64,000 bases of DNA from an uncultured Candidatus Bathyarchaeia archaeon (GTDB lineage Archaea; Thermoproteota; Bathyarchaeia; Bathyarchaeales; Bathycorpusculaceae), in NCBI GenBank assembly GCA_964535965.1, contig CAZHWZ010000005.1:37-64036 (forward strand), in the 5' to 3' direction. This document shows, in pieces, positions 4,396 to 64,000 of this stretch (position 1 is its first letter; the number at the start of each line of letters is the position of its first letter). Position numbers and translations under genes: made by a program. The notes under the pieces were generated by a model. The model did not search any database. It was not told the origin of the DNA and saw only the letters and a program-made list of their open reading frames with translations.

Positions 4396-4789
4396 ACTGT
4401 TCCTTGAGAAGCTCTTCCAGGCTTAGAAGAGGCTTATCTGGAGCAGGCTCAACTTCCGCCGGAATCCCTTTCAAAGAGGGCATACCAATGCCATGAGTTT
4501 CAGGGTCCACCACGGCATTTGCCCATGGACCATAAGGAATAAAAATTATTCCCGGGTGTGGGGTTCTTAGGGATTTTAGAGCTTTGACGACTACTGAGCC
4601 ATAATCCGTTGACACCAGAACGTTGGTTTTCTCTTTTATTCCAAGCTTCTTTAGGTCTTCAGGGTCCATGTAGCAAACTGAAACGCTTTCCATATATTCC
4701 CTTGAGGCTTTTCCACGCTCCTTTCCTACACCTTGCTCTATTGTCCGACCAGTAAGCAATGTTACCCGCAGTTTTAGATTCTGTCTCAT
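4382..4789 (-). CDS. fwdD: formylmethanofuran dehydrogenase subunit D (molybdopterin dinucleotide-binding beta-barrel)
   Basis: 135 aa. LTGRTIEQG..VCYMDPEDLKKLGI..G..V.V resembles the Molydop_binding domain. Overlaps fwdB by 14 nt. GAGGT lies 6 nt upstream of the ATG. Confidence 0.85.
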   Translation of the reverse strand: MRQNLKLRVTLLTGRTIEQGVGKERGKASREYMESVSVCYMDPEDLKKLGIKEKTNVLVSTDYGSVVVKALKSLRTPHPGIIFIPYGPWANAVVDPETHGIGMPSLKGIPAEVEPAPDKPLLSLEELLKEQFGKE

Positions 4790-11069: not shown

Positions 11070-12251
11070 TTAAAGAGCCTTAAAGGCTTCAAACCATCTA
11101 TTGTACAAAGCCAGCATGTCGAGGGAAACACTCGGTTTTCTCTCTTCAAGTATTTGTCTAAAGTCGTCCATTCTTAGAGACCTCGGCTTGGCTAGCTTGT
11201 TGGTTGCTTGACCAGATTCGAAGAATTCACCTACAAGCTTCAGGTGTGCTGACTGGCAAACATCCCTTATGTCGCTTCCTGAAAATCCCTCTGAGAGTCT
11301 AGCTAACTCGTGCAGGTCAACGTCGGGAGCAAGCTGAAGATTGCTTGTATAGAGTTTGAACATCATCAAGCGTGTATGATGGTCCGGGAGCGGCACCAAA
11401 ATTCTCTTCTGAAACCTTCTAATAAAGGGCCAGTCCAAGTCCCACGGCTTATTTGTCGCTCCAATAACGTAGACATGAAGATCTTTACCCTTATCTATAA
11501 TGCCGTCCATCTCCTTCAAGAATTGATTTCGAACACGAACTTCTCCGCCGACCTCGTTTGAATGTTTTCCCATGAGAGAGTCCAACTCATCAATGAAAAC
11601 TATGGCTGGTTTCCCTTCGGTAGCTGACTTTCTGGCTGAACCAAAAAGTTTGGCAACATTCTGTTCAGCTTCACCCAACCATTTAGACATTATCGAGGCT
11701 GCATCAACCGAGATGAAAGTCGCATCTATTTCTGTTGCGACTGCTGCAGCGAGTAGCGTTTTCCCACAGCCTGGCGGTCCGAATAGGAGAATTCCCCTTG
11801 GCCATCCTAAGGGAAATAGATCAGGTCTTTGAACTGGATAGACTATGGCTTCTTTTACTGCTTTTTTGGCAGGTTCGAGTCCCACAACTTCATTCCATTT
11901 TACGTCTGGCTTCTCGGTAACTATTAATTCCTCGTAGCTTGATTTTCCGCCTTCTGTACCTTTTGCACCTTCAATGTCTCTGGCTTCGTATCGTGTTTCA
12001 ACAGGTCCCACTGCCCCTTGTAACACCTTTATTCTTTCTTGATAGGCTATTGCCCTTTGTATGTAAACTTTATTTAGGCTATACTCTGGATATAGTTGGA
12101 CAAGTTTAAGCAGGCTTTCTATTGCCTTTTGATACATCGTTATCGCCATGCCTCTTGCTCCTTGCTTGTCGAGGCGAACAGCTTCTAATGCATAGTTGGT
12201 TGCGGCTTTCTCAAGCTCTTGGGAAGCACTCATAAGCCTTCTCCCTCTCAT
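11070..12251 (-). CDS. cdvC: Vps4-like AAA+ ATPase CdvC with N-terminal MIT domain
   Basis: MIT-like helices (AITMYQKAIESLLKLVQLYPE), Walker A GPPGCGKT, Walker B IVFIDELD and an AAA second region of homology. The likely true start is the second ATG at 12233 (MSASQ..), which has GAGGG/GGGAG upstream. Confidence 0.9.
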   Translation of the reverse strand: MRGRRLMSASQELEKAATNYALEAVRLDKQGARGMAITMYQKAIESLLKLVQLYPEYSLNKVYIQRAIAYQERIKVLQGAVGPVETRYEARDIEGAKGTEGGKSSYEELIVTEKPDVKWNEVVGLEPAKKAVKEAIVYPVQRPDLFPLGWPRGILLFGPPGCGKTLLAAAVATEIDATFISVDAASIMSKWLGEAEQNVAKLFGSARKSATEGKPAIVFIDELDSLMGKHSNEVGGEVRVRNQFLKEMDGIIDKGKDLHVYVIGATNKPWDLDWPFIRRFQKRILVPLPDHHTRLMMFKLYTSNLQLAPDVDLHELARLSEGFSGSDIRDVCQSAHLKLVGEFFESGQATNKLAKPRSLRMDDFRQILEERKPSVSLDMLALYNRWFEAFKAL

Positions 12252-13147
12252 CCCTCAGACTTTAACTCAATCTTTATTTTCCCTTTCGCCCCTAAACTTT
12301 CAAGGGCTTTCTCAATCTCCTCGTACGAGGTTTTCAAATCATCAGAACAACGCGCTATATCGATTTCTCCATTACTTTTCTTAACATACTCGAGAAGAAT
12401 ATCTTCTAACGATGGATTTTCAACCTTTAAGGAGATTTCCTGAATCTCAGCTTTTTTGTAAGAAAAGAGGGTTTGGGAAGAATCTCTATTGGATTCCTCG
12501 ACTGTCTCGCGACCAATTGCATGCGAACAGTTGGCTGTTAAAGCAACCATCTCTTTTAATGCAGTTTGTTCAGCTTCGGGAGTTTTTAAGGTGGCGGGCG
12601 GTTCAGGAAGCCTTTCAGCAAGTTTTTGTTCAAGGAAGCTTGAGACTTCCTTTAATATCTCCTCGCCTCCAGGCGTTTTCCTGTTCACTGGTATTATTGT
12701 CTCATCCGTAGTTATCCTAGTTGAATAGAGTGTTTCGCTTATTGTTTCGTTAACTTTGTTCAGTTCAGAGGAAACATCTGGTAGGACTTCAAATAGCTGT
12801 TGCGAAACGCTTTGAAGAAGCTTTAAAGCGGGTTTGAGGTCGATGACTATGTCACTTAATTCTTTTATTGTTTCAAGTCTAATAATCACGCGTTCGATGG
12901 CTAGTTCTACATTGTAGAGAAATTTTATTAGCCTTCGAACCTCTGCAATTTCATTTGCGCAGATTGCCGCTCTTTCCCTATTCTTATTCTTTAAGGCACC
13001 TATGCATGTTTGAAAAAGGATTCTGTCTCTTTCTTTAAGTCTGAAACTCGCTTGGTCAAGTTTGTTGCGCTGAATTTTTAGCGTTTGTATTGACTTGGCA
13101 ACTATTTCACGAAGTGGTGGAGGGTTTGAACGAATGAAACCCTTGAT
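12248..13147 (-). CDS. cdvB: ESCRT-III (Snf7-family) protein CdvB with C-terminal winged-helix-like domain; proposed non-canonical ATC start
   Basis: The listed ORF (12248..12889, GTG) lacks the N-terminal half of the ESCRT-III core. The same frame is open up to the TAG at 13166-13168. It encodes IKGFIRSNPPPLREIVAKSIQTLKIQRNKLDQASFRLKERDRILFQTCIGALKNKNRERAAICANEIAEVRRLIKFLYNVELAIERV, which is collinear with residues about 23-110 of the paralogue at 13943..14614. GGAGG lies 8 nt upstream of ATC 13147-13145. Confidence 0.65.
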   Translation of the reverse strand: MKGFIRSNPPPLREIVAKSIQTLKIQRNKLDQASFRLKERDRILFQTCIGALKNKNRERAAICANEIAEVRRLIKFLYNVELAIERVIIRLETIKELSDIVIDLKPALKLLQSVSQQLFEVLPDVSSELNKVNETISETLYSTRITTDETIIPVNRKTPGGEEILKEVSSFLEQKLAERLPEPPATLKTPEAEQTALKEMVALTANCSHAIGRETVEESNRDSSQTLFSYKKAEIQEISLKVENPSLEDILLEYVKKSNGEIDIARCSDDLKTSYEEIEKALESLGAKGKIKIELKSEG

Positions 13148-13183
13148 GTTTTTTCCCTCCGCCCGCTACCTTTTTGTCGCAGG

Positions 13184-13924
13184 TTATACACCGGATTTTC
13201 CGACTTCCTTAACATACACGACTACAGGGGGTTCTGGAAGTTCGGGACCTGTGGAAGTTGGAGTAAACTCTTTCGAGGCTTCTTCCTTTACTTTACTTTT
13301 CTCTTGTTCCGCCGTTTTTGGTTTTTCACCTAATAAAATGTTTGAAAGTTTGTTTTTTGTGAGTTCTAAATCGCTTTTCTCCATGTTGACTCGTTTGAGG
13401 TTTTCTTGGATTGCTGCAAAGGCTGTTTTATAAGATTGTTCGTCGATTTTTCCTATCTCATGTTCTATTTCAAGATGCACTAGAGCATAGTTTAGCTCTC
13501 TTGTTTCCTTAAAGCATCTGGCAATTTCCTTATCTATTTCTTCTATGAGAGTTTGAGCCTCGCTTTTGAGTTGAGTTAATACTCCATCAAAATTGTTATG
13601 CAGCTCTTCGTAAAGTTCCTGCGAGATCTTTTTCTTTTCGGCTAACTCCTTAAGGGCTTGGTCTTTGCGCCATATAAGTGGGATTTGATCACAGAAAACG
13701 CTTGTTTCTGATTTTATTCTAGAGACAAATGTTGCATCGGCACCATCGAATTTTAGGTGCTCCGTGGAGTGTTTTAAGAATTTTCCGTCACTTTGTTCGA
13801 TAAAGACGGCGTCAAATTTTCCGCTCGGGGTCAGGGCAAAAGATGCTATCTTGCCCACTACACGTCCATATTCGTCCTTAACTTGCTTTCCAATTGAAAG
13901 AAAAAGGTTGGGGTTTTGCGACAT
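13184..13924 (-). CDS. cdvA: CdvA (PRC-barrel plus coiled coil plus C-terminal ESCRT-III-binding tail)
   Basis: N-terminal IGKQVKDEYGRVVGKIASF (PRC-barrel-like), a central heptad-rich region and a C-terminal PELPEPPVVVYVKE tail like the CdvB-binding peptide. Sits between two ESCRT-III genes. Confidence 0.8.
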   Translation of the reverse strand: MSQNPNLFLSIGKQVKDEYGRVVGKIASFALTPSGKFDAVFIEQSDGKFLKHSTEHLKFDGADATFVSRIKSETSVFCDQIPLIWRKDQALKELAEKKKISQELYEELHNNFDGVLTQLKSEAQTLIEEIDKEIARCFKETRELNYALVHLEIEHEIGKIDEQSYKTAFAAIQENLKRVNMEKSDLELTKNKLSNILLGEKPKTAEQEKSKVKEEASKEFTPTSTGPELPEPPVVVYVKEVGKSGV

Positions 13925-20545: not shown

Positions 20546-22999
20546 CTATTTCTTCTCTTTCCTCTTCAACATGTTCTCAAGCACTGGACGTAATTTCTCG
20601 TTTTCCGCCTTAATCTTATCCTTGCCTAAGGCATGCATCTGCTCAGTCATCTCTTTGACTATCTCCGCAAACCTAACGCCTTCAGCAGCAGAAACATACT
20701 CCACACGGAACCTTTCTGGACTTAATCCAAGCTTATTCAGCATCGGCGCCAAAGCATCCATCCTAGCCTTCATCTTCCAGTTTCCGCTTATGTAGTGACA
20801 GTCGTATGGTAGATGGCAAGCGCCAACCAAAACCATGCCTGCACCCAGCCTAAGAGCCTCAAGCACGAAATCGCGGTCAACCCTCCCAGAACACATCACG
20901 CGTACAGCTCTTATAGTCGGCGGATATTCAAACCTGCTAGTGCCAGCCAAATCCGCGCCCGCATAACTGCACCAATTACACAGAAAAGCCATAACCTTGT
21001 CTTCTGGGTTTGTTTCTAGGGCTGCTCTTACTTGGGCCAAGATTTGGGCGTCTGTGAAGTGCATCTGCGTTATGGCGTCTGCAGGACATTCAGCCACGCA
21101 TGTTCCACATCCGTGGCACATGGCAGTTATCACTTGAGCAGGCTTTTTCTCCTCAACTTTTATCGCGCCGTAAGGACATCGTTCAGCACAGATGCCGCAT
21201 TTAACTGTCATATTCCTGCATTTGCTCGGGTCTATAACTGAAACTATTGGCTCAATCTTCCATTTCGGCTTCGAAAGTACTGTTGCCGCTCTTGATGCTG
21301 CTCCGCTGCCCTGTGAAACGCTGTATGGTATGTCCTTCGGTCCTTGACACGCTCCGGCTAGGAAAATTCCGTCAGTAGGCGCGTCAATGGGCTTTAGTTT
21401 CGGATGGCTTTCCATAAGGAAGCCGTCTGCTCCTCGTGTTAAGTTGAGTATGCGTGCCATTTCCTCTGTGCCCTTTTTTGGTATGGCTGCAGTTGCCAAA
21501 ACAACCATATCAGTTTCAATCTCTATTGGCTGGCCGAGTGTCATATCCTCGGCGTGTATTATCAGATTCTTTGTTTCTGGAACCTCGAAAATGCGGCTTA
21601 CTCTTCCGCGGATAAAGTTTGCACCAAGCTCTCTTGCCCTGTCATAAAATTCCTCATATCCTTTGAAATTGCTCCGCATGTCCATGTAGAAAACGTATAC
21701 TTCCACGTCTTCCTTGTATTTCTCTTTAAGTTGAACAATGTGCTTCAAAGTGTACATGCAACAGAAGTTTGAACAGTATTGATACTTGTTTTTGTCACGC
21801 GAACCAACACACTGAATGAAGGCCACGCTGTGGGGTTTCTGCCCATCAGAAGCCCTGACAACTTTTCCGCTGGTTGGACCAGCTGCAAGTATAAGCCTTT
21901 CAAATTCGAGAGAGGTTACAACGTTTGTGAATTTGCCATACCCGTAAAGCTGGCTGTCATAAGGCAGGTATATGTCATAGCCTGTGGCGACGATTATTGC
22001 GCCTACTTCTAGCTCGATTTCTTCTGACTGCTGTTCGAAGTTTATGGCTTGTCTTGCCCCACAAGCGTCGACACACTTGTAGCATTCAATGCAATAATCC
22101 TTGTTTATCGTGTAAACCAGCGGAACAGCCTGATCGAAGGGAACTGATATGGCTTTCCTAATCCCTAAGCTCATGTCCCAATCGTTAGGATACTCAATTG
22201 GGCAAACGTCTTTACATTCACCGCAGCCGGTGCAGTTTTCAGCGATTATATACCTTGGGTTTTTCCGAATCTTAACCTTGAAATTGCCTATGAAACCGCT
22301 AACGTTTAGCAGATCAGCATAGGCTATTATCTCAATATTGGGATGCCTTCCAACATCAACCATCTTCGGACCTTCAATGCATATGGAGCAGTCAAGGGTT
22401 GGAAAAGTCTTGTCTAGTTGCGCCATGTGGCCGCCTATGCTTTCGCCTTTTTCAAGCAAATACACCTTGAAACCCATTTCAGCCAAGTCTAATGCGGCGT
22501 TTATCCCGGCTATGCCGCCGCCAATGACCAATGCCTTGTTGGTTACTGGAACTTCTATTGTTTGAAGTGGCATTAGCAGCCTTGCCTTTGCGACAGCCAT
22601 TTTTATTATTTCCTTAGCTTTTTCCGTCGCCTCCTTGGGAGTGCTTGGATGACACCATGACGAGAATTCGCGGATGTTTGCCATTTCATAAAGGAAGGGG
22701 TTTAAGCCAGCATCTGAAACTGTTCTTCGGAATGTGGGTTCATGCAGCCGCGGTGAACAGGCTGCCACGACTACACGGTTGAGCTTATGCTCCTTTACTG
22801 CCTTCCTAATTTCCTCTTGTCCCGGGTCTGCACATGTGTAGCGGTTATCTTTCACGTAGACTACGTCCGGCAAAGCTTTGGAATATTCAACAAGTTCTTT
22901 TATGTCTAATACTCCTGCTATGTTCAAGCCGCAGTGGCATATGAAAACCCCTATTCGAGGGACCTCAACCTCAACTTTCTCTTCAGCCATGCTATGCAC
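20546..22999 (-). CDS. hdrA: heterodisulfide reductase subunit A fused to an MvhD/FlpD-like C-terminal domain
   Basis: FAD fold VIGGGIAGINAALDLAEMGFKV and several CxxCxxCxxxCP ferredoxin motifs. The C-terminal 140 aa (FLCNWCSYAGADLAG..RVMCSGRV..GACHLPYDCHY) match the MvhD family. Confidence 0.85.
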   Translation of the reverse strand: MHSMAEEKVEVEVPRIGVFICHCGLNIAGVLDIKELVEYSKALPDVVYVKDNRYTCADPGQEEIRKAVKEHKLNRVVVAACSPRLHEPTFRRTVSDAGLNPFLYEMANIREFSSWCHPSTPKEATEKAKEIIKMAVAKARLLMPLQTIEVPVTNKALVIGGGIAGINAALDLAEMGFKVYLLEKGESIGGHMAQLDKTFPTLDCSICIEGPKMVDVGRHPNIEIIAYADLLNVSGFIGNFKVKIRKNPRYIIAENCTGCGECKDVCPIEYPNDWDMSLGIRKAISVPFDQAVPLVYTINKDYCIECYKCVDACGARQAINFEQQSEEIELEVGAIIVATGYDIYLPYDSQLYGYGKFTNVVTSLEFERLILAAGPTSGKVVRASDGQKPHSVAFIQCVGSRDKNKYQYCSNFCCMYTLKHIVQLKEKYKEDVEVYVFYMDMRSNFKGYEEFYDRARELGANFIRGRVSRIFEVPETKNLIIHAEDMTLGQPIEIETDMVVLATAAIPKKGTEEMARILNLTRGADGFLMESHPKLKPIDAPTDGIFLAGACQGPKDIPYSVSQGSGAASRAATVLSKPKWKIEPIVSVIDPSKCRNMTVKCGICAERCPYGAIKVEEKKPAQVITAMCHGCGTCVAECPADAITQMHFTDAQILAQVRAALETNPEDKVMAFLCNWCSYAGADLAGTSRFEYPPTIRAVRVMCSGRVDRDFVLEALRLGAGMVLVGACHLPYDCHYISGNWKMKARMDALAPMLNKLGLSPERFRVEYVSAAEGVRFAEIVKEMTEQMHALGKDKIKAENEKLRPVLENMLKRKEKK

Positions 23000-23930
23000 C
23001 CATCCACCCCAATCTCTTCTCTACGGATTCCATTACCTTCTGAGAGCCTTTAGCCTTCAACTCTTTAGTCATCTCAATTGGTGAAGCTAACCTCTCTAAT
23101 GCTTTGTTCCATGTCCCCGAGCGAACAGGTGTGTGACTTACTTTGGTTCGTTTAAGCTCCAAGGCTTCCTCAACCGGACAAACAACCTTGCAAGCTCCAC
23201 AGTAGACGCAAAACATCTCGTTCACATGAACCTTTTTATCCTCATCAGAAAGGTAAAGTGCGCCAGTTATTGGACAGACATCCAAGCAGTCTGTGCATCC
23301 CTCTGGACATTTTTCAGGTTTAATCGCAATTTTTCCGTAAAAGAATTTTCGCACACGCATGACGCCTTCGGGGCATTTAAATTCGCAGATTCTGCAACAT
23401 GGGCAACGCTCTTTCTTAACATCAATTTTAACTTGAAGTTCCTTTCTCCTCTTTTTTGGAAGCCTTTTGACGTTTTCAACAACTTTTCCATCCTGCGTCA
23501 GTCTTGTTATCTTAATTAAATCTAGGGGGCATGCTTCTTCGCATTTCACACTATCTACAGGATATTTACTAGCGTCCACTTGGATGTCGCGAATTAGTTG
23601 TGGGAAGCTTTCTTTTTCAACTACTGAAAGCACATGTTCACCGTTCACTGTGACTTTTATTGCTCCGTAGGGGCATAATATGTCGCATATTCCACAAAAA
23701 TTACATTTTGACAAATCAATGTCAATTTTGGCTTTTTTAGCCTTTTCTCCTGAAGTTTTAGGCTCCTTTTCAAGCTTAACAGCCTCTTTTGGACAAGCTA
23801 GAGCGCAGATTTGACAGCCCGCGCATAGGTTTTTGTCAAGATTCAGCTTGTAATTTTTCACGTGTAAAGCCCATTCTAACGTTAATGCTTTCGCTGTGTC
23901 CGTCTTTGCTGTTTTTAGCGGCATCGCCAA
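22992..23930 (-). CDS. polyferredoxin (multiple 4Fe-4S dicluster domains, MvhB/FwdF-like)
   Basis: At least five CxxCxxCxxxCP-type motifs (CAGCQICALACP, CNFCGICDILCP, CPCCRICEFKCP, CTDCLDVCP, CVYCGACKVVCP). Overlaps the hdrA start by 8 nt. Confidence 0.8.
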   Translation of the reverse strand: MAMPLKTAKTDTAKALTLEWALHVKNYKLNLDKNLCAGCQICALACPKEAVKLEKEPKTSGEKAKKAKIDIDLSKCNFCGICDILCPYGAIKVTVNGEHVLSVVEKESFPQLIRDIQVDASKYPVDSVKCEEACPLDLIKITRLTQDGKVVENVKRLPKKRRKELQVKIDVKKERCPCCRICEFKCPEGVMRVRKFFYGKIAIKPEKCPEGCTDCLDVCPITGALYLSDEDKKVHVNEMFCVYCGACKVVCPVEEALELKRTKVSHTPVRSGTWNKALERLASPIEMTKELKAKGSQKVMESVEKRLGWMGA

Positions 23931-36746: not shown

Positions 36747-36853
36747 TGGCGCCCTGGCCGGGATTTGAACCCGGTTCTAGTCACAGAGTAAATTCTCCAT
36801 GATGTCCAGCGGGCGACAGCCGCTTATACTAGACCGGACTATACTACCAGGGC
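36747..36853 (-). tRNA. tRNA-Asp (GTC) with an insert of about 28 nt between the anticodon stem and the T stem; CCA encoded
   Basis: Minus strand GCCCTGG TA GTAT AGTCCGGTCTA GTAT A AGCGG CTGTCGC CCGCT [33 nt] CCGGG TTCAAAT CCCGG CCAGGGC G CCA. All four stems pair. 33 nt sit where 5 are expected. Confidence 0.85.
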
Positions 36854-38694: not shown

Positions 38695-38810
38695 TGGCGC
38701 CGGGGGTGGGATTTGAACCCACGCGGCCCCGAGAGGCCACAGGCTGTTAGGCACCCTTAGCCTTTCAAGCGTCTCCAGGCCTGCTCCATACCTAGCTAGG
38801 AGACCCCGGC
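38695..38810 (-). tRNA. tRNA-Ser (GGA), class II, with an intron of about 27 nt at or near position 37/38; CCA encoded
   Basis: Minus strand GCCGGGG TC TCC TAGCTAGGTAT GGA G CAGGC CTGGAG[27 nt]A GCCTG T GGCCTCTCGGGGCCGC GTGGG TTCAAAT CCCAC CCCCGGC G CCA. Long variable arm and G73 fit Ser. Confidence 0.8.
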
Positions 38811-39134: not shown

Positions 39135-39773
39135 TTAGTGTTTTTCTGCAATTAACACGCGGTAACCACTTTTCCTCGCGAGAATAGTAACGTTTCCAAA
39201 GGCTTCCTTGAAAATCGTTTGCAGTCTTTTTCCGCCAACTTTCGATTTTACAACCATCTGAAATAAGGCTTTGCTAGCCATGTATTTTGGGGCTTCAGTT
39301 ATTATGGCTTTTACGGTGTCCATTCCAACACTCACTGGAGGATTCGAAAGGATACATTTGAACATCAAGTCTTTAACTGGCTCGTATAGGTGGCCCCTTC
39401 TAACTTCAGCATTGTCAACATGATTAATTTCGATGTTTTGTTTTGCGAGCCAAACAGCCCTTTCATTAACATCAACCATGATCACACGTAAATTAGGATT
39501 GAAAACTGCAGCAGCTATTCCAACAGCGCCATACCCACAGCCAACGTCCAAAACATATCCCTTTTTAGGAAGAACCATGGACTCTATTAGCAGTCTCGTG
39601 CCCAAGTCCACACGCTTTTTGGAAAACACGCCTGAAGCTGTCAAAAACTCGAAATGTCTATCGCGAAGGCATGTGCGAATCAGGCCAAACTTTGCCTTCG
39701 ATTTTGGATGGGCAGCAAAATAGTGTTCTAGGCTTTCGCTTTTCTTAGGCATTTTTAGCCTCTTCTCCAACAT
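39135..39773 (-). CDS. SAM-dependent methyltransferase, RsmC/RlmG-like 'MTS' small domain
   Basis: VLDVGCGYGAVGIAAA (motif I) and ILSNPP (N-methylase motif IV). Overlaps the cbf5 3' end by 19 nt. Confidence 0.7.
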   Translation of the reverse strand: MLEKRLKMPKKSESLEHYFAAHPKSKAKFGLIRTCLRDRHFEFLTASGVFSKKRVDLGTRLLIESMVLPKKGYVLDVGCGYGAVGIAAAVFNPNLRVIMVDVNERAVWLAKQNIEINHVDNAEVRRGHLYEPVKDLMFKCILSNPPVSVGMDTVKAIITEAPKYMASKALFQMVVKSKVGGKRLQTIFKEAFGNVTILARKSGYRVLIAEKH

Positions 39774-40786
39774 TTGGGATATGTACCCCTAGGCATTAGA
39801 ACCCTTTTAGTCTCGGCAACAACTCCATGTTCCATCTTCAAAATCTCATCCGTAGAAGTGGCAGCCTTACCCAAAGCAACAGCTTCACCTTTCAAGGTGA
39901 GAACAGCAGCCAGCGAACCATCGCTTATTCCAGTTTCAATAGATAAAACACCGGGAGCTGTCAGGTTTGCTCCATGGCAGATGGCATCAACCGCAGAGTC
40001 TCTAACGTAAATCTTCGGAACTAAAGTTAAAGCGTTTTCCATAGGATTTATGAACTGCCTCAAAACATTGTCATCTTTTTTCTCTTGCCACTCCGTAAAC
40101 CAGTAAGCCACATCATGCAAGGTTACAAAGTCTTCGCCATCCTCAACAAAGGGTCCAGCCCTTGTTCTGCGCAGTTCCTGCATGTGCGCCCCACAGCCCA
40201 AAACCTCACCCATATCATAACAGAGCTTGCGCAGGTACGTGCCGCCTTCACATCCAGCCTTAAAAAGAATGTTTCGCCCTTCCATCTCAAGAAAATCTAG
40301 ATAATAGATTCGCCTGGTACGTAGCTGCCGTTTAACCGACGCCCTCAAAGGAGGCCTCTGATAAATAACATCCTCAAACTCTTCCAAGACATTCTTAACT
40401 TGTTCCTCTTTTGCTTCTCCATGAAGCTTCATTACGCAAATGTACTCTTTACCACTGTAAAGTAAGGCCTGAAGAATTTTCCTGGATTCCTCTAGGGTGA
40501 TGGGCAACACTCCGGTCACGTTAGGATTTCTCTGGTTTTAGACCTCTAGAGTCCCGCCGTGACCCACATGCTCAAGCTTAAGTATGCGTTTAACCCAAGC
40601 AGCCACTTCATGGCTCGTTGGACCAGCAGGTTTATCCAGGTTTATGAGACCGTAGCGTATGTACTCTTCAGCTGGTCTTTCTTCGGGTTTATGCCCGTAG
40701 CGGGGATTTGTCTTATCCTCAGCCTTCACTAACAATTTACGCTCAATTTCCCATGGAGCAATACTTCTAGGCATGACAGCTAACAC
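39755..40786 (-). CDS. cbf5: H/ACA RNP pseudouridine synthase Cbf5 (TruB plus PUA), interrupted by an 18-nt BHB intron; exon 1 40786..40546, exon 2 40527..39755
   Basis: ORF 40538..40786 ends ..PTSHEVAAWVKRILKLEHVGHGGTLEV*. ORF 39755..40519 starts (V)TGVLPI.. Joining after intron removal gives GHGGTLDPNVTGVLPI, 337 aa in total. The C-terminus has a PUA-like domain. rpl14e is upstream, as in other archaea. Confidence 0.85.
40528..40545 (-). other. predicted bulge-helix-bulge (endonuclease-spliced) intron within the cbf5 mRNA
   Basis: RNA from 40554 to 40524 reads GGA-CUCU-[AGA]-GGU-CUAAA-ACC-AGAG-[AAA]-UCC. This gives a 3-bp outer helix, a 4-bp central helix, two 3-nt bulges on opposite strands and a 3-bp inner helix. 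Cleavage after nt 2 of each bulge removes AGGUCUAAAACCAGAGAA. Confidence 0.8.
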
Positions 40787-41186: not shown

Positions 41187-41244
41187 AAGAGAAAAATGGG
41201 GGAATGTAGGTGTTTTCTTTACGGGTCCATTTCGCCGTAGTGTA
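41187..41244. repeat. repeat copy A: shared 3' coding end plus 3' flank of the two dockerin genes
   Basis: Nearly identical to 46211..46267 (..gaaaaatgggggaatgta(g/c)gtgttttctttacgggtccatttcgccgtagtgta). Confidence 0.85.
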
Positions 41245-44200
41245 GGGCTGTCGTGTATATGTCTTCTATGTCTACTATTTTGTCACTGTTTATGTCCATG
41301 TTGGGGCTGTGGGGACATGCTCCGCATGGGGTTGGATGCATGTACTCGCCGTTGACGGGAACCGAGCCGTACGCCAATGAGATCAAGTATATGTCTTCAA
41401 TGTCAACTATGCCATCGGCGTTTACGTCGCCGATCAAGCCTACATAAACCCAACCATCAGCAAGCATATTATCTGCTGTGTGTGTTTCGCCTGAAACAGG
41501 CCAAGCGTAAGCCCATACGGTGTAGTTGCCCTTAACAAAGCCAGAAGTGTTCCAAGTGAAGGTGACAGCTTTGAAGGCTGCACTCGTCAATGCTACTGTT
41601 TCTGTTTCAATGACGTTTGAGTTGTAGTAGATGGTGATGTCGAGGGTTTCTGTCTGTCTGCCTTGATTTTCAACGATAACGCTGATGGATACGGAGTAGC
41701 CCTGTCCCACTACTGTTTTTGAAGGTTTAACACCAACGATGCTTACGTCATGAACCACCTGTTCTGGGTCGTGACCGAAGATGATTATTTCGGTTGGATC
41801 CAGGGCCTTTGGCTCTGCTGTAGTCGAATTGACTAATATCATGTTGGGATCGCCATAGAAAACGTAGGCGTTGCAGCAGTCGTCAACATATGGGTAAGCA
41901 TACCACGGAAACTCGTTACCTGGAGTGACCGTGTAATTGTAGACCCATACGCGACTGAAGAGGGTCATCTCAAAGTAGGTTTTGGGGTAAACGTATCCTG
42001 TCTTAGTTACCGCTGTCACGAAGGCTTCGCCCAGCGTCATGCCTACCATGACCTCCTGCGTATACTTGACGCAGAACCAGTCCGTATCTATGAGCAAACC
42101 TGTCCTCATGTCTCCGATAGCCGATGCTGCGCCGTGCCTCATCATAGTTAGTGGTAACAATGAACCCCCGACGTAGCAGTCCATGAAGACTATGTTTATT
42201 GAGTGGATGTTGCCGAGCCATCGGTCAAATTCTCCACCATATGCGAAGCTGAAGGGCTCCCCCAATCTTTGGTAGACTGCCCCGTCTGGATATGGATAGC
42301 CGTCGAGGTTGTATTGGTCTGGAATCGACGCATTCTCGGCGTATGTGGTCATGTTATACTCGTATCCGCGTTTCGGCTGCAGGTCTGGTGGATCCTCGTA
42401 CCAGAGACCGACTCCACCTTGCCCAAAGGGCAGGTAGTCCCAGACAAAACCGAGTTCACCATGGTTTGAGTGGTACCAGAAGGCCACGCCGGAGTTTAGT
42501 ACGTTGAAGACTTCGTATTTACCGATGTGTGCCTCTACCGTGAAATTACGACTTTCCATAGCATTCGTCGTGTTGTCCCAGCCGTTAACGCTGTATACAT
42601 AACTTGGCGGAGCCTTATAGTCCGGTGGCTGTATAAGGTTAGGCGGGATGTCGCTGGGTATGTCCGGCATTCCGTAATCGTACGCTACGCATGTGGGCAT
42701 ACTGATGTTGTATCCAGGGTTGGCGTAGATTATGGCTGGGTATAGCAGGGCCCTGCTAACGAAGGCGACATCTTCTTCTGCGTTTTCTCCCGGAATTCTT
42801 CCAGCTTTAGCGATGCCTTCGATTGCCCTCTCAAACACTGGCTTAACATCTACGAGAGGCGCAACCGTCAGCACGCTTTCCATGCCGGGAGCGTCGGCGC
42901 CTAGGCTTCCAATCCACTCGGACCATTCTTTTGACAATTCATGCATCCAGTGGATGGGTGGGGCCTTGAGCAGCCAGTCTAAAGGACTTATTCCGCCCCA
43001 CTCGTGAGCAAAGTATTGATATGCCCAAGTGGAGTCTGCGAGTGTTGGAATCTGCTTTGCGTTGCCTTTGAAAATAAGTATAGGAGCGCCGTGAAATGCT
43101 CCGGCTAGCGCGGCTGGAGCGAAGAAGTTGTCCGTCGGTACAGTTAAGATTATGTCCGTTTCTCCACTGAGACCTCTTATGTAGGATACGACGTCCTCTA
43201 AGCTTAGCAGGTCTTGGGTGATCGTGATGCCCATGTCCGTAATCTGGCTCTTAACACTGCTGGAGATTATTCCGGCAGGGTCAACGATGATCACTTCCTC
43301 AACTCCGAGGATTTGAAGGGTTTCTCTTGTTTCGTGTAGCAGGGCATCGGTTGCGGTGAAGAGAAGTGGGGCATTTAACAGGGATGCAATGACTGCCCCA
43401 TTGGCTGCGGCTTCGACATAGTTAAGCTTTGTTTCGTTGTATAATGGGATTTCGTATTGAACCGTGTATTCGACGGGTTCATTCGGTGGATACTGTCCAA
43501 GGAGTGCTGCTTCCGCGATTAGGGTCCAGTTTCCAGGCGTTGGGTAAAGGGTGTTAAGGTGACCTATGCTGGATACGTATAATGGCGACGGTGGGTACTC
43601 AGTATATTCGGATTCAAAGTAGTTGGGGAAGAGGATGTTGCCTTCTGGGTCTATCAGCCACATGGACACCCAACTCATTCTCTTTTGAGTGCTGTTGCAT
43701 GAAAGCCAAGCGTCGAGTTCCTGAGCGTTTTCAGGCACGGTTATTGTATACGCATCGAGGTTCCCTGGCTTGCGTGAGAAGCCATACGCGAGTCCTCCTA
43801 TAACCAAGCCATAGTCAACTCCACCCTCGAATCCCATGCAGTAAATCGCCACCGTATAGCTTTCTGGGGTGGTTCTTGGGCGCTCGTTGACGCCCCACAT
43901 CATCCATGTATAACCGCCTGTAGCGGGTGTGAAGTCGTAGTCGACAACGTTTCCATCTGGGTCTATGAGGAAGCACGCTAGCCACGTTTCTCCGACGGCT
44001 GTGGTCCAGTTGAGCAGCTGAACTTGTGTTATCATGATGCCTGTGATGTTGGCTGGTATGGTAAAGTTCAGCCACTCTCCTCTATGAATCACGGGTTCTG
44101 GTAGAGTTGCGTTCCATATGTAGGCATCGGCGATGAAGCCCCAGTAGGTTCCTATGCGGTCGGTTGTTAGACGAATGTGGACTACGTCGCCGGGAACAAT

Positions 44201-45685
44201 GGGTGTCCATACATCCTCGTAGTATCCATTGTAAGATGTTATCAGCTTCCAGTCCCTGTCATAGATGTACAAGTAGTCGTATCCAGGTTCTAGATCAATT
44301 TTTGGGAAGTGGACACTGATGCTTACTGCTCCTAAATGAGCCACATCGTACGTCACGTTCATATTGTTTTCATATGGGTGTGGCGACTCGATAGGGGGTT
44401 CGATGGTCGCATACTGTCCAGATGGAGGGCCGCTAATGCGGAACGGGTAACTGATGTAGTACTCTTGCGTTACGTTGAAGAATTCGCCGCGAAATTCGCC
44501 GTACGTGACTGCTGGTGTTGGGAAGTACGTCTTCGCTGGCGTTATTACCGCGGAACTTGAGTTTATCCATTCCCGGAGGGCGATCTCTTTCCCGTACTTG
44601 TATGGGTCGTTAACCATGATGGACGTGTAGTTGTCGGTTCCGAGGTAGCCTTTCATGTATGACATGTAATCGTTGCTGTATGGACCTATGAAGTCTGTGT
44701 AGCTGACTCCTCCCCAGTGGTCGCAGTAGGTCTTCCAGTCTTCGAGGAGGTAGTTGCCAGCCATGGACTCGCCGTATATGATTGGTGCCATGTAGAGGTT
44801 TCCAATCTCGTCTCTGAATACGTTTGCTGGCACGGACGCAAGGAAAGCATATTCGTCAAGGTAGGATGTGGGGTCGGAGTAGACGAATGTGCATCGCCTA
44901 AAAGGAACACGTTTCGGCACTAGCGCGCTAACACTGCCATGTTGCAGATTTGCCGAAATTTCATTTTTGGTGTTCGTTACCCCCCAATCTGGATCGCCGA
45001 TTATTTTGCGAAAATCGTTTGTGACGATGGCTATGTCAGTGATATTCACTGTGCTGTCGCTATTGACGTCTGTCGATGAATTGTAGGTGCCCCTAGCCCA
45101 ATCACGAAGGGTGAGGAAAACATCCAACATGTCTACTCTTAGATCATTGTCCACGTCAGACCATGGTCTGTACGGCGTAGTAGAGTACGGATCGTGACCT
45201 ATTAATGATACATTGACGAGCGTCAGCGGGCTGGTTCCATCACTGATGGGATTGAAGTTGACTGTTAATAACTTTACTACAGTGGCCGTCGCTGGCTGAC
45301 CGGGGCGTAACGCAGCCTCAAGGGCAGGTAGAGAAGTATTGGGCATATAGAAAAATCCTGCTTCACTAACGCTATCTAATACCGGAGGATTTCTTATAGT
45401 GGTAAGCCCTGTAAGGTTTGCGAAATCCCCCCACTCAAAGGATACATAATCTAAAACCAGGGGATTCCACTCTAAGCCCACTTGCCAAGCCCAGAGGTTT
45501 TGAACATTAGACACCATGATACTAACTGAGAATTGTGTATTCACCGATACTCTGATTGACGATGGGTAAATGTAAACTGCAGGATCATCCTGTGCTTTTA
45601 ATGGTTGAACGTTAAGTATCAACGTTAATATGCCTGTTAATAGCAGTGTTAGCATTATTCCCGTAACCGCTTTCCTATTTTCCAT
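41219..45685 (-). CDS. giant secreted multidomain protein: signal/TM, cohesin-like domain, internal dockerin, possible C25/clostripain-like Cys peptidase, CARDB-like domain, C-terminal dockerin
   Basis: Start placed at MENRKAVTGIMLTLLLTGILTL (ATG 45685). Cohesin-like SVNTQFSVSIMVSNVQNLWAWQVGLEWNPLVLDYV. Dockerin loops DVDNDLRVDMLDV, DVNSDSTVNITDI, DVNADGIVDIEDI and DINSDKIVDIEDI. WYHSNHGELG and FMDCYVGGS may form a His/Cys dyad. CARDB-like VSISVIVENQGRQTETLDITIYYN. Confidence 0.6.
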   Translation of the reverse strand: MENRKAVTGIMLTLLLTGILTLILNVQPLKAQDDPAVYIYPSSIRVSVNTQFSVSIMVSNVQNLWAWQVGLEWNPLVLDYVSFEWGDFANLTGLTTIRNPPVLDSVSEAGFFYMPNTSLPALEAALRPGQPATATVVKLLTVNFNPISDGTSPLTLVNVSLIGHDPYSTTPYRPWSDVDNDLRVDMLDVFLTLRDWARGTYNSSTDVNSDSTVNITDIAIVTNDFRKIIGDPDWGVTNTKNEISANLQHGSVSALVPKRVPFRRCTFVYSDPTSYLDEYAFLASVPANVFRDEIGNLYMAPIIYGESMAGNYLLEDWKTYCDHWGGVSYTDFIGPYSNDYMSYMKGYLGTDNYTSIMVNDPYKYGKEIALREWINSSSAVITPAKTYFPTPAVTYGEFRGEFFNVTQEYYISYPFRISGPPSGQYATIEPPIESPHPYENNMNVTYDVAHLGAVSISVHFPKIDLEPGYDYLYIYDRDWKLITSYNGYYEDVWTPIVPGDVVHIRLTTDRIGTYWGFIADAYIWNATLPEPVIHRGEWLNFTIPANITGIMITQVQLLNWTTAVGETWLACFLIDPDGNVVDYDFTPATGGYTWMMWGVNERPRTTPESYTVAIYCMGFEGGVDYGLVIGGLAYGFSRKPGNLDAYTITVPENAQELDAWLSCNSTQKRMSWVSMWLIDPEGNILFPNYFESEYTEYPPSPLYVSSIGHLNTLYPTPGNWTLIAEAALLGQYPPNEPVEYTVQYEIPLYNETKLNYVEAAANGAVIASLLNAPLLFTATDALLHETRETLQILGVEEVIIVDPAGIISSSVKSQITDMGITITQDLLSLEDVVSYIRGLSGETDIILTVPTDNFFAPAALAGAFHGAPILIFKGNAKQIPTLADSTWAYQYFAHEWGGISPLDWLLKAPPIHWMHELSKEWSEWIGSLGADAPGMESVLTVAPLVDVKPVFERAIEGIAKAGRIPGENAEEDVAFVSRALLYPAIIYANPGYNISMPTCVAYDYGMPDIPSDIPPNLIQPPDYKAPPSYVYSVNGWDNTTNAMESRNFTVEAHIGKYEVFNVLNSGVAFWYHSNHGELGFVWDYLPFGQGGVGLWYEDPPDLQPKRGYEYNMTTYAENASIPDQYNLDGYPYPDGAVYQRLGEPFSFAYGGEFDRWLGNIHSINIVFMDCYVGGSLLPLTMMRHGAASAIGDMRTGLLIDTDWFCVKYTQEVMVGMTLGEAFVTAVTKTGYVYPKTYFEMTLFSRVWVYNYTVTPGNEFPWYAYPYVDDCCNAYVFYGDPNMILVNSTTAEPKALDPTEIIIFGHDPEQVVHDVSIVGVKPSKTVVGQGYSVSISVIVENQGRQTETLDITIYYNSNVIETETVALTSAAFKAVTFTWNTSGFVKGNYTVWAYAWPVSGETHTADNMLADGWVYVGLIGDVNADGIVDIEDIYLISLAYGSVPVNGEYMHPTPCGACPHSPNMDINSDKIVDIEDIYTTALHYGEMDP

Positions 45686-45845
45686 CCTCTTTTCCTTCTT
45701 TCCCCTCTTTCCCCTCTTTACATTTAATGAAAGAGGTCGTAAGCCATCAGACAATACAGCTCATTGGCTTCTCAGACGCTCTCAGCAGAAGCCATTTAGG
45801 CTACAATGAAACAAGCCTCTCCCTTGCTAAAACATCCAAATAGTT

Positions 45846-63320: not shown

Positions 63321-63397
63321 GCCCCCGTAGCCTAGCTGGTTAGGGCGTTAGCCTTGTAAGCTGAAGGTCCCGGGTTCAAATCCCGGCGGGGGCTCCA
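63321..63397 (+). tRNA. tRNA-Thr (TGT), no intron, CCA encoded
   Basis: GCCCCCG TA GCCT AGCTGGTTA GGGC G TTAGC CTTGTAA GCTGA AGGTC CCGGG TTCAAAT CCCGG CGGGGGC T CCA. Confidence 0.9.
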
Positions 63398-63834
63398 TCA
63401 AACTCAACATTTTAATACACTAGAACACTAACAGTTAAAAAGAGAAACATGGACTCATCAATAATCTCAGAACTTCTAAACCAAGCCCACATATGGCATA
63501 AACAACATGCACCCAGACTTCTAATCAGGCTGAGCTACTGAGGCACACGCATATAGCAATCACAACATCAAAAATAAAAACCTTAGCCACACAAAGTCAT
63601 TATTAAAAACCCTTATAATCTACGACGCAACACTTATATGTGCGAAAGCCGCTTCAAAAATATTTTAGCGACTTAGTCAAAACCATGAAAATAGATGCAA
63701 CTCCCATCGAAAATGATGCAGAGTGAAGGGTAAAATGAGCCATAAAAGCTCATAATGACACCATGCACAAGCCAAACCAAAACACCACGTAAAGGTTTCA
63801 CCAAAACGTCAAACAGACACCGCCAAAAGGCCCG

Positions 63835-64000
63835 ACATGCCACGCCGTCTGGAGAATGGCTCGGCTTGAGAGCCGAAGAAGGGCGCGGCAAGCCGCGAAA
63901 GAGCCCCGGGTAGGCGCATGCAGCCTTAGAACCGGGGATTCCTCAATGGGACTTCCCACCATGGTTCTTCGGAACCGTGGTGCTCCCAAATGGGAGCGGG
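63835..64000 (+). rRNA. 23S (LSU) rRNA, 5' end only (start about +/-20 nt); continues beyond the window
   Basis: ..GGAGAATGGCTCGGCTTGAGAGCCGAAGAAGGGCGCGGCAAGCCGCGAAAGAGCCCCGGGTAGGCGCATGCAGCCTTAGAACCGGGGATTCCTCAATGGGACTTCCC.. matches the conserved 5' domain I of archaeal 23S rRNA (GGUGGAUGGCUCGGC..GAAGGGCG.GGCAAGCUGCGAUAAGCCCCGG..AAUGGG). An 11-bp hairpin with a UUCG loop lies at about 63958-63983. Confidence 0.8.

What the first reader, a model, noticed from the sequence alone, without database searches (positions are those of the whole stretch)
40524..40554. cbf5 is split by an 18-nt bulge-helix-bulge intron that interrupts the catalytic Asp codon
Two adjacent ORFs encode the N- and C-terminal parts of Cbf5, and the first ends in an in-frame TAA (40540-40538).

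The minus-strand RNA across the junction folds as GGA/UCC (outer helix), CUCU/AGAG (4-bp central helix) and GGU/ACC (inner helix, loop CUAAA). Two 3-nt bulges (AGA and AAA) sit on opposite strands. This is the canonical substrate geometry of the archaeal tRNA splicing endonuclease.

Cutting after the second nucleotide of each bulge, as at tRNA position 37/38, removes 40545..40528. It joins CUA G|AU CCU to give GHGGTL-D-PNVTGVLPI. The universally conserved GTLDP motif with the TruB/Cbf5 catalytic aspartate therefore exists only after splicing.

Endonuclease-spliced introns in protein-coding genes are very rare. I recall cbf5 introns being reported for a few Crenarchaeota (Aeropyrum, Sulfolobus). 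Finding one here, at the catalytic codon and in a genome with H4MPT C1 genes, bears on intron gain and loss, and it also corrects an annotation.
Basis: partly seen in the sequence, partly recalled or inferred. Interest (0 to 1): 0.85.

Follow-up and report, generated by a model that had tools for sequence, protein, structure and literature searches.

The report
Mini-intron splitting the cbf5 gene
An 18-base insert that breaks the pseudouridine-synthase gene cbf5 of a Bathyarchaeia archaeon at its catalytic codon has all the sequence marks of a tRNA-type (bulge-helix-bulge) intron; it is the one known from some hot-spring Crenarchaeota, and here it proves common in Bathyarchaeia and present in two further archaeal phyla.

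Summary
On the minus strand, ORF 40786..40538 and ORF 40519..39755 are the two halves of cbf5. Removing 40545..40528 (18 nt) gives a 337-aa Cbf5 that aligns without gaps to Pyrococcus Cbf5 (E 1e-120) and restores GHGGTLDP. The minimum-energy fold of the junction is an exact hBHBh' motif.

The position, between nt 1 and 2 of the catalytic Asp codon, is not new. It is exactly where the known crenarchaeal cbf5 intron sits (Yokobori 2009). The host is new: the window is from Bathyarchaeia.

The same-site intron occurs in 25 of 80 Bathyarchaeia species genomes and in at least 120 metagenome contigs (106 distinct introns, 17-40 nt). It shows compensatory base changes, and the synonymous exon codons that build the helices are locked (Leu CUA 26/26 against 3/55 in intron-less genes). 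An in-frame stop lies inside 121 of 125 distinct introns.

I also found it in Caldarchaeales (Aigarchaeota) and in contigs whose relatives are named Woesearchaeota (DPANN).

Splicing itself is inferred, not shown. Verdict: a new member of a known kind, with a much wider distribution than reported.

The parts
40546..40786 (-). cbf5 exon 1. It encodes 80 codons plus the G of the Asp codon. The start is taken as GTG 40786; an ATG at 40774 is an alternative.
   Evidence: ORF list, splice reconstruction, Pfam DKCLD and start of TruB_N, alignment to Pyrococcus Cbf5.
40528..40545 (-). 18-nt BHB intron AGGUCUAAAACCAGAGAA.
   Evidence: Its removal restores GHGGTLDP and the reading frame. Same-site inserts of 13-40 nt occur in relatives.
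39755..40527 (-). cbf5 exon 2. It begins with AU of the Asp codon and runs through the stop codon at 39757-39755.
   Evidence: TruB_N, TruB_C_2, PUA.
40514..40564 (-). The whole structured splice element:
- distal exonic helix GGUCACG (40564-40558) / CGUGACC (40520-40514)
- outer helix GGGA (40555-40552) / UCCU (40526-40523)
- central 4-bp helix CUCU (40551-40548) / AGAG (40533-40530)
- 5' bulge AGA (40547-40545) and 3' bulge AAA (40529-40527)
- inner helix GGU (40544-40542) / ACC (40536-40534) with loop CUAAA
   Evidence: MFE fold. Pair counts over 26 sequences: 95% of cells paired, central helix 100%. The exon codons that form the helices are locked only in intron-bearing genes.
40538..40540 (-). 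In-frame UAA inside the intron loop. It would terminate translation of unspliced mRNA after 82 aa.
   Evidence: An in-frame stop occurs in 121 of 125 distinct Bathyarchaeia-type introns, against 22 and 24 in the other two frames and 40 +/- 5 in shuffles.

Best explanation
This is the archaeal cbf5 pre-mRNA intron. It is a mini-intron of the tRNA/rRNA (bulge-helix-bulge) type, sitting between nucleotides 1 and 2 of the catalytic Asp codon of the H/ACA pseudouridine synthase Cbf5.

Shown by sequence:
- The transcript can fold into a canonical hBHBh' motif. The exon supplies the outer helices and the 5' strand of the 4-bp central helix. The intron supplies the 3' strand, a small hairpin and parts of both 3-nt bulges.
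- Cutting after the 2nd nucleotide of each bulge and joining the ends recreates G|AU (Asp) and an uninterrupted 337-aa Cbf5.

Inferred:
- The splicing endonuclease EndA makes the two cuts, leaving a 2',3'-cyclic phosphate and a 5'-OH.
- An RtcB-type ligase joins the exons, as demonstrated for the same intron in Aeropyrum and Sulfolobus.
- Unspliced mRNA cannot give an active enzyme, because the Asp codon does not exist.
- The conserved in-frame stop inside the intron is best read as a fail-safe. It limits translation of unspliced RNA to a short N-terminal peptide, rather than a full-length catalytically dead Cbf5 that could compete for H/ACA partners. This last point is the most speculative step.
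For: 1. Anatomy of the window.

2. Same site and same cut rule as the experimentally studied crenarchaeal intron: PMC2738675.

3. Independent recurrence.
- 25 of 80 Bathyarchaeia species-representative genomes carry an insert at exactly this nucleotide.

4. Covariation.
- The central helix is paired in 26/26 sequences, with U-A to C-G double changes in 4.
- All 3 scored inner-helix pairs show compensatory changes.
- Sliding the partner columns drops pairing from 95% to 26-44%.
- In 116 of 125 distinct introns the inner helix is at least 2 bp and abuts the bulge, against about 13% of shuffled interiors.

5. Synonymous exon positions that form the helices are fixed only when the intron is present:
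- Leu CUA 26/26 against 3/55
- Val GUG 26/26 against 4/55
- Gly GGG 21/26 against 6/55
- Asp GAU 24/26 against 15/55

6. In-frame stop.
- It is present in 121 of 125 distinct introns.
- All three stop codons occur at read-through codon 3 (TAA 59, TAG 26, TGA 11).
- Of the 29 introns without a stop there, 25 have a later in-frame stop.

7. The organism needs BHB splicing anyway. Two intron-containing tRNA genes lie within 4 kb of cbf5.

8. Same-site introns in a Sulfolobales MAG, Caldarchaeales and Woesearchaeota-like contigs all restore GH.GTLDP on removal.
Against: - There are no transcript data, so neither cleavage nor ligation has been observed for this organism or for any Bathyarchaeia.
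- No EndA or RtcB gene was found among the window ORFs scanned. This is expected for a 64-kb window, but it leaves the enzymes unverified.
- A loosely defined BHB motif occurs about 100 times per window by chance, so the fold alone proves little.
- Shared ancestry inflates the covariation, codon and stop-codon counts. The 96 stops at the same codon may be largely inherited.
- The metagenome pattern fixed the exon sequences and the RGRG strand, so only the interior of those introns is independent evidence.
Confidence: 0.9

Rival explanations
1. The gene is genuinely split. Two polypeptides (82 aa and 254 aa, the latter from GTG 40519) are made from unspliced mRNA and assemble into an active enzyme.
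For: Two adjacent ORFs exist. The second has a possible GTG start 19 nt downstream of the stop of the first.
Against: - Neither fragment would contain the catalytic Asp. Its codon exists only after removal of the 18 nt.
- The rival gives no reason for a conserved BHB with compensatory changes, or for synonymous codons being locked into helices.
- Intron lengths of 17-40 nt put exon 2 in any frame relative to exon 1.
- The same arrangement is spliced in Aeropyrum and Sulfolobus (PMC2738675).
Confidence: 0.04
2. The insert is an assembly or sequencing artefact, or a decaying pseudogene.
For: Such cases do exist. One look-alike 'split' cbf5 (L210) turned out to be a 1-nt frameshift (AATT for GAT), not an intron.
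Against: - The insert recurs at the same nucleotide in 25 independent species-level MAGs and in at least 120 metagenome contigs from many samples, with varied sequences that keep the structure.
- Both halves are otherwise intact and 72-81% identical to full-length relatives.
Confidence: 0.02
3. Translational recoding: the ribosome bypasses the 18 nt, with no RNA cleavage or ligation.
For: The insert is a multiple of 3, is structured and contains a stop. Superficially this resembles a bypass element.
Against: - A hop would have to start inside a codon (after G) to make Asp.
- Relatives have inserts of every length class, only 41 of 106 being multiples of 3.
- The geometry is exactly the EndA substrate, with 3-nt bulges 4 bp apart.
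- The homologous crenarchaeal element is removed at the RNA level (PMC2738675).
Confidence: 0.02

Closest known systems
Crenarchaeal cbf5 pre-mRNA intron (Watanabe et al. 2002; Yoshinari et al. 2006; Yokobori et al. 2009, PMC2738675)
   Same: - Same host gene.
- Same insertion point, between nt 1 and 2 of the catalytic Asp codon.
- Same size class: 16-44 nt there; 18 nt here and 13-40 nt in the relatives found here.
- Same cut rule, between the 2nd and 3rd bulge residues.
- A Sulfolobales MAG fetched here has near-identical borders to some Bathyarchaeia genes: ACCCUAG|AGCC...GGGGAU|AUCC.
   Different: - Host lineage: Bathyarchaeia, not Desulfurococcales or Sulfolobales.
- The motif here is a canonical hBHBh'. 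The paper describes most crenarchaeal ones as 'unconventional' (relaxed) BHB that need the hetero-oligomeric endonuclease.
- The Bathyarchaeia-type introns almost always carry an in-frame stop. The Sulfolobales and Caldarchaeales examples I fetched do not.
- Splicing has not been shown experimentally here.
Archaeal tRNA and rRNA BHB introns cut by EndA
   Same: Same recognition structure: two 3-nt bulges separated by a 4-bp helix and flanked by helices. The presumed enzymes are also the same. Two intron-containing tRNA genes sit 2-4 kb away in the same window.
   Different: The host is an mRNA coding region, so the exon strands of the helices are built from codons. This produces the synonymous-codon locking seen. 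Translation of the unspliced RNA also becomes an issue.
Haloferax volcanii HVO_1309 BHB intron (PMC7714728)
   Same: It is an mRNA processed by the tRNA splicing endonuclease at a BHB motif.
   Different: It lies in a 5' UTR rather than the coding sequence, in a different gene and lineage. It does not rebuild a codon.
HAC1/XBP1 unconventional mRNA splicing in eukaryotes (from general knowledge, not tested here)
   Same: Both work alike. A non-spliceosomal endonuclease removes a short intron from a coding mRNA, tRNA-ligase chemistry joins the ends, and this changes what protein is made.
   Different: The endonuclease (IRE1) and the RNA motif are different, the process is stress-regulated, and there is no evolutionary relationship.

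Membership tests
Archaeal BHB (EndA-type) intron | Two 3-nt bulges on opposite strands separated by a 4-bp helix | tested here: met
   The MFE fold gives CUCU/AGAG flanked by bulges AGA and AAA. The central helix is paired in 26/26 related sequences.
Archaeal BHB (EndA-type) intron | Flanking helices h (exon side) and h' (intron side) of at least 2 bp, i.e. the canonical hBHBh' form | tested here: met
   h is GGGA/UCCU plus a further 6-7 bp. h' is GGU/ACC. h' of at least 2 bp is present in 116 of 125 distinct introns.
Archaeal BHB (EndA-type) intron | Cleavage after the 2nd nt of each bulge yields a functional joined product | tested here: met
   The join gives G|AU = Asp and a 337-aa Cbf5 with no gap across the junction against solved Cbf5 structures.
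Archaeal BHB (EndA-type) intron | Actual cleavage by EndA and ligation by RtcB | not testable with these tools
   No transcriptome or enzyme assay is available.
Archaeal BHB (EndA-type) intron | The genome encodes EndA and an RNA ligase | tested here: inconclusive
   Neither was found among about 45 window ORFs scanned with Pfam. Two intron-bearing tRNA genes in the window imply that the machinery exists.
cbf5 pre-mRNA intron (Watanabe/Yokobori) | The host gene is cbf5 | tested here: met
   Pfam DKCLD, TruB_N, TruB_C_2 and PUA domains. Alignment to Pyrococcus Cbf5 at E 1e-120.
cbf5 pre-mRNA intron (Watanabe/Yokobori) | Inserted between the 1st and 2nd letters of the catalytic Asp codon | tested here: met
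   The window reads cta G|...|AT cct. The definition is quoted from PMC2738675.
cbf5 pre-mRNA intron (Watanabe/Yokobori) | Short, with no ORF (16-44 nt reported) | tested here: met
   18 nt here.
cbf5 pre-mRNA intron (Watanabe/Yokobori) | Distribution restricted to Desulfurococcales and Sulfolobales, as stated in the literature | tested here: not met
   The window and 25 GTDB genomes are Bathyarchaeia. The intron is also in Caldarchaeales and Woesearchaeota-like contigs. This is a property of sampling, not of the element, so it widens the family rather than excluding the window.
cbf5 pre-mRNA intron (Watanabe/Yokobori) | Common descent with the crenarchaeal intron | tested here: inconclusive
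   The site is the same and the border nucleotides are similar (CUAG|A ... RGRGAW|AUCC). However, nearly all the shared nucleotides are dictated by the BHB or by codons, and the introns are too short for phylogeny.
Group I / group II self-splicing intron, or intein | A ribozyme core of hundreds of nt, or an in-frame protein-splicing domain | tested here: not met
   The insert is 18 nt and contains a stop codon. There is no Rfam hit at this place.

The most novel reading that the evidence does not exclude
The Asp-codon cbf5 intron is not a crenarchaeal peculiarity gained once in the ancestor of Desulfurococcales and Sulfolobales.

Either it is very old, predating the split of the Thermoproteati lineages (Thermoproteota, Bathyarchaeota, Nitrososphaerota/Caldarchaeales) and possibly of DPANN, and has been lost many times. 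Or it is re-acquired repeatedly at this one nucleotide by an unknown targeting mechanism.

In either case it is kept because it does something. It would make synthesis of active Cbf5 depend on the tRNA-splicing machinery, with the selected in-frame stop preventing production of a dead, competing enzyme from unspliced RNA.
Probability: 0.3. Interest if true: 0.8.

Novelty: new member of a known kind. Interest (0 to 1): 0.6.

Why it matters
Coding-region introns removed by the tRNA splicing endonuclease are very rare. [quoted passage not shown]

1. Evolution. The same intron at the same nucleotide is common in Bathyarchaeia, one of the most abundant sediment archaeal groups, and occurs in Caldarchaeales and in DPANN-type archaea. 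This undercuts the published scenario of a single gain in the ancestor of Desulfurococcales and Sulfolobales. It raises the question of why this one codon keeps an intron across archaeal kingdoms.

2. Annotation. Gene callers split these genes into a 'hypothetical' 80-100-aa protein and an N-terminally truncated Cbf5. Cbf5 is used as a phylogenetic and completeness marker, so this matters in hundreds of MAGs.

3. Method. The codon locking and the in-frame-stop signature are simple, testable marks that could be used to search for further mRNA BHB introns.

Tried and rejected
1. 'All Bathyarchaeia cbf5 introns are multiples of 3.' All 26 introns in the window and the GTDB loci were (18, 21, 24, 33, 36 or 39 nt). 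This proved to be an ascertainment artefact of the tblastn-ranked locus list. A frame-agnostic DNA-pattern scan gave 17-40 nt, with only 41 of 106 distinct introns divisible by 3.

2. The BHB motif as evidence on its own. A loose hBHBh' scan finds 106 motifs in the window against 72-106 in shuffles, so the motif alone is rejected as evidence. None of the other hits was examined as a candidate intron.

3. Counting every 'split' N-terminal Cbf5 fragment as an intron. Forty of the 150 best representative clusters break right after GH.GTL. Of the 7 I could check at the DNA level, 6 were same-site introns. One (P0137/L210) was a 1-nt frameshift. The figure of 40 is therefore an upper bound.

4. Looking for EndA, RtcB or H/ACA partners in the window. 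None was found in the ORFs scanned.

5. Direct comparison with Aeropyrum or Sulfolobus type-strain sequences. A Sulfolobales MAG (L204/L205) and an Acidilobus-named fragment cluster (P0173, protein only) served instead.

6. Rfam has no family at the site.

7. A literature search for cbf5 + intron + Bathyarchaeota/Bathyarchaeia/Aigarchaeota/metagenome found no report outside Crenarchaeota. Subscription-only papers are not covered by that search.

Full report
**1. The observation**

The minus strand around 40524-40554 reads ...CAC GGC GGG ACU CUA G|AG GUC UAA AAC CAG AGA A|AU CCU AAC GUG ACC.... ORF 40786..40538 (82 aa) ends GHGGTLEV*. ORF 40519..39755 (254 aa) begins MTGVLPI.

Deleting 40545..40528 (18 nt) gives a 1014-nt ORF. 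Its 337-aa product contains GHGGTLDPNVTGVLPI. It carries the complete Cbf5 architecture DKCLD, TruB_N, TruB_C_2 and PUA. It aligns over residues 7-334 to Pyrococcus abyssi Cbf5 (2aus_C, E 1.4e-120) with no gap across the junction.

- GUCACG/CGUGAC
- an internal loop
- GGGA/UCCU (h)
- CUCU/AGAG (the 4-bp H)
- bulges AGA and AAA
- GGU/ACC (h') with loop CUAAA

The energy is -18.2 kcal/mol and z = -3.2.

**2. How much chance would give**

A loose hBHBh' definition (4 Watson-Crick pairs in H, 3 pairs in each of h and h', loop 3-60 nt) matches 106 places in the window. Shuffled copies give 72-106. The fold by itself is therefore weak evidence. The weight comes from two things. The two cut sites fall on the two nucleotides that the protein alignment independently demands, and relatives conserve the arrangement.

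**3. What the literature already knows**

Watanabe and colleagues found and experimentally characterised a BHB-type intron in cbf5 of Aeropyrum and Sulfolobus. Yokobori et al. 2009 (PMC2738675) make four relevant points:
- The cuts lie between the 2nd and 3rd residues of the bulges.
- Sizes are 16-44 bp.
- The intron is found only in Desulfurococcales and Sulfolobales. It is absent from Thermoproteales, Cenarchaeum, Nitrosopumilus and Korarchaeum.

The window's intron is thus at exactly the known site. [quoted passage not shown] Four further full-text searches found no report for Bathyarchaeota or any other lineage.

**4. Whose genome this is**

The spliced protein's best hits are Bathyarchaeota/Bathyarchaeia Cbf5 at 72-81% identity. 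All 80 loci returned from one-genome-per-species GTDB contigs encode relatives. Of these, 78 come from records titled Bathyarchaeia or Bathyarchaeota, and L057 and L073 are titled 'Candidatus Acidoferrum sp.'.

The window context fits an anaerobic member of Thermoproteati:
- formylmethanofuran-dehydrogenase-like genes
- CdvA and a Vps4-like AAA ATPase
- HdrA/MvhD-like genes
- L14e directly upstream of cbf5

**5. The intron in relatives**

Of the 80 loci, 55 have an intact GH.GTLDP. The other 25 carry an insert after the G of the Asp codon, 18-39 nt long. The borders are conserved (ACYCUAG|A ... RGRGAW|AYCC) and the interior varies in sequence and length.

I scored a trimmed alignment of 26 sequences:
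- 95% of cells are paired, against 26-44% when the partner columns are slid.
- The central helix is paired in all 26, with a U-A to C-G double change in 4 sequences and U-A to U-G in 7.
- All three scored inner-helix pairs show compensatory changes.

A Cbf5 neighbour-joining tree puts 22 intron-bearing genes, including the window, in one clade with a single intron-less member. Two small intron-bearing pockets lie inside the intron-less clade. This pattern suggests old presence with losses, but it comes from one short protein and a simple method.

**6. Codon locking**

The exon strands of the helices are made of codons. In intron-bearing genes their synonymous positions are nearly fixed. In the 55 intron-less genes they are free:

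| Codon | Intron-bearing | Intron-less |
|---|---|---|
| Leu CUA | 26/26 | 3/55 |
| Val GUG | 26/26 | 4/55 |
| Gly GGG | 21/26 | 6/55 |
| Asp GAU | 24/26 | 15/55 |
| His CAC | 25/26 | 23/55 |

This is what selection on the RNA structure predicts. Relatedness inflates the contrast, but the isolated intron-bearing pockets show the same codons.

Two intron-less genes (L015, L020) still read GGT CAC GGC GG[G/C] ACT CTA GAC, which could be a relic of precise intron loss.

**7. A wider, frame-agnostic sample**

All 26 introns in the first set were multiples of three, so I suspected ranking bias. I scanned metagenome contigs with the pattern CACGGNGGNACYCTAG-N(6-36)-RGRGAWAYCCYNANGTGAC.
- The scan stopped at its 120-contig limit.
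- It gave 106 distinct introns of 17-40 nt, 41 of them divisible by three. The 'multiple of three' rule is therefore an artefact.
- Combined with the first set there are 125 distinct introns. In 116 of them the inner helix of at least 2 bp abuts the bulge, against about 13% of shuffled interiors.

**8. An in-frame stop**

Reading on from exon 1, 121 of the 125 distinct introns contain a stop codon in frame. The other two frames give 22 and 24, and composition-preserving shuffles give 40 +/- 5.
- The third read-through codon is TAA in 59, TAG in 26 and TGA in 11.
- Of the 29 introns without a stop there, 25 have one further on, against 7 and 10 in the other frames.

Because all three stop codons are used, and the stop moves when the sequence differs, I read this as selection for termination rather than for a particular loop sequence. 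Inheritance still accounts for part of the count. The window's UAA (40540-40538) is this stop.

**9. Other lineages**

I searched the exon-1 peptide against 1.84 billion representative proteins. Forty of the 150 best clusters are N-terminal fragments that break off immediately after GH.GTL. Source names and fetched DNA give the following.

| Lineage (basis) | Locus | Intron | Junction |
|---|---|---|---|
| Ca. Calditenuaceae HR02 (named) | L201 | 19 nt | GGGACCCUAG\|UCCCCGGUGGGUGGGGGAG\|AUCCC |
| Ca. Caldarchaeum sp., many MAGs (named) | L206/L207 | 14 nt | GGGACCCUAG\|AGUCUUUCGGGGAG\|AUCCC |
| Sulfolobales MAG (named) | L204/L205 | 32 nt | GGUACCCUAG\|AGCCCUCC...GGGCGGGGAU\|AUCCG |
| Marine Tara contig, GC 32%; Cbf5 relatives named Ca. 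Woesearchaeota or Nanoarchaeota | L208/L209 | 16 nt | GGGACUCUAG\|AGUAAAAAUCAGAGAA\|AUCCC |
| Groundwater contig with the same gene order as L208, unnamed | L211 | 13 nt | GGGACCUUAG\|UCAUAUGAAGGAA\|AUCCU |
| GC-54% contig with TACK-like gene order, unnamed | L212 | 13 nt | GGGACCCUAG\|GGAAAACGGGGAU\|AUCCU |

Two further fragment clusters are named Acidilobus and a 'TACK group/Thermoprotei' MAG; no DNA was fetched for them. Every one of these restores GH.GTLDP.V.G.LP on removal of the insert.

One candidate (L210) was a 1-nt frameshift, not an intron.

By NCBI taxonomy the hosts span two archaeal kingdoms: Thermoproteati (Thermoproteota, Bathyarchaeota, Nitrososphaerota/Caldarchaeales) and Nanobdellati. 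Within the Woesearchaeota-like group most relatives are intron-less, so the intron is again patchy.

**10. Mechanism**

Shown:
- the substrate geometry
- the exact restoration of the catalytic codon
- conservation with covariation
- structure-driven codon choice
- the in-frame stop

Inferred from the characterised crenarchaeal homologue and from general knowledge of archaeal RNA splicing:
- EndA cuts in both bulges.
- RtcB joins the exons.
- Only spliced mRNA yields active Cbf5.

The motif here is canonical, so it should be cleavable by any EndA type. This differs from the mostly relaxed crenarchaeal motifs that were linked to the hetero-oligomeric enzyme.

The organism clearly uses this machinery. 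tRNA-Ser(GGA) at 38695-38810 has an anticodon-loop intron. tRNA-Asp(GUC) at 36747-36853 has an insert of about 28 nt after an intact anticodon arm.

The purpose of keeping the intron is unknown. The published suggestion is negative regulation of Cbf5 expression. My addition is that the stop codon looks like a safeguard against translating a full-length but dead enzyme.

**11. Rivals**

- Two separately made polypeptides would lack the catalytic Asp, and would not explain the RNA-level constraints.
- An artefact or pseudogene is excluded by recurrence in more than a hundred independent assemblies.
- Ribosomal bypass does not fit a mid-codon take-off, the variable lengths in all frames, or the homologue's RNA-level splicing.

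**12. Verdict**

The finding is real and correctly interpreted. It is a new member of a known kind (the cbf5 BHB intron) rather than a new kind.

Three things go beyond the literature I could search:
- the host range: Bathyarchaeia commonly, plus Caldarchaeales and DPANN-type archaea
- the canonical form of the motif
- the codon-locking and in-frame-stop signatures

It also corrects an annotation: one 337-aa Cbf5 instead of two ORFs. Splicing in this lineage still needs transcript evidence.

Noticed in passing
window 36747-36853 (-) and 38695-38810 (-): Two intron-containing tRNA genes lie close to cbf5. tRNA-Ser(GGA) has an insert of about 27 nt in the anticodon loop. tRNA-Asp(GUC) has an intact anticodon arm (AGCGG CUGUCGC CCGCU), and its insert of about 28 nt lies after it, in the variable-loop region, which is a non-canonical intron position. 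Both genes encode the 3' CCA. ARAGORN without the intron option missed both.
   Followed up: partly
L001-L080 (cbf5 junctions) and L081-L200: Nearly all Bathyarchaeia-type cbf5 introns (121 of 125 distinct) carry a stop codon in the exon-1 reading frame. It is usually the third read-through codon (TAA, TAG or TGA). The Sulfolobales and Caldarchaeales introns I fetched lack it. The two DPANN-like ones (L208, L211) have it.
   Followed up: yes
L015 and L020, cbf5 around the GHGGTLDP motif: These two genes are intron-less but keep the codon set typical of intron-bearing genes (GGT CAC GGC GG[G/C] ACT CTA). This could be a footprint of recent, precise intron loss.
   Followed up: partly
L210:1740-1744: A cbf5 on a 97-kb ENA contig next to an Arf/Ras-family GTPase gene is broken at the same codon by AATT in place of GAT. 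This is a 1-nt frameshift, most likely an assembly error or a pseudogene, not an intron. It is a warning against counting every split cbf5 as an intron.
   Followed up: partly
window 41219-45754 (-): Next to L14e and cbf5 there is a 1511-aa ORF with an N-terminal hydrophobic segment and only faint Pfam matches (Dockerin_1, CUB). It looks like a large secreted or surface protein of unknown function.
   Followed up: no
window 406-4789 (-), 11070-13924 (-), 20546-23930 (-): Three gene groups noted in context:
- A formylmethanofuran-dehydrogenase-like cluster (GXGXG, Amidohydro_3, molybdopterin oxidoreductase and Molydop_binding subunits).
- A Cdv cell-division cluster (CdvA-like and a Vps4-like AAA ATPase).
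- An HdrA-like flavoprotein fused to an MvhD/FlpD domain, next to a polyferredoxin.
All are consistent with an anaerobic Bathyarchaeia genome.
   Followed up: no
window 63828-64000 (+): The 5' end of a 23S rRNA gene starts at the window edge. It is preceded by tRNA-Thr(UGU) at 63321-63397. No 16S rRNA gene lies upstream within the window, so the rRNA genes may be unlinked.
   Followed up: no
window 40548-40541 (-): The 5' splice junction CUCUAG|AG is an 8-nt palindrome (CTCTAGAG). It is also present in the other intron-bearing Bathyarchaeia genes that have CUCU and an intron starting AG. I could not tell whether this reflects how the intron arose or is a by-product of the BHB constraints.
   Followed up: no
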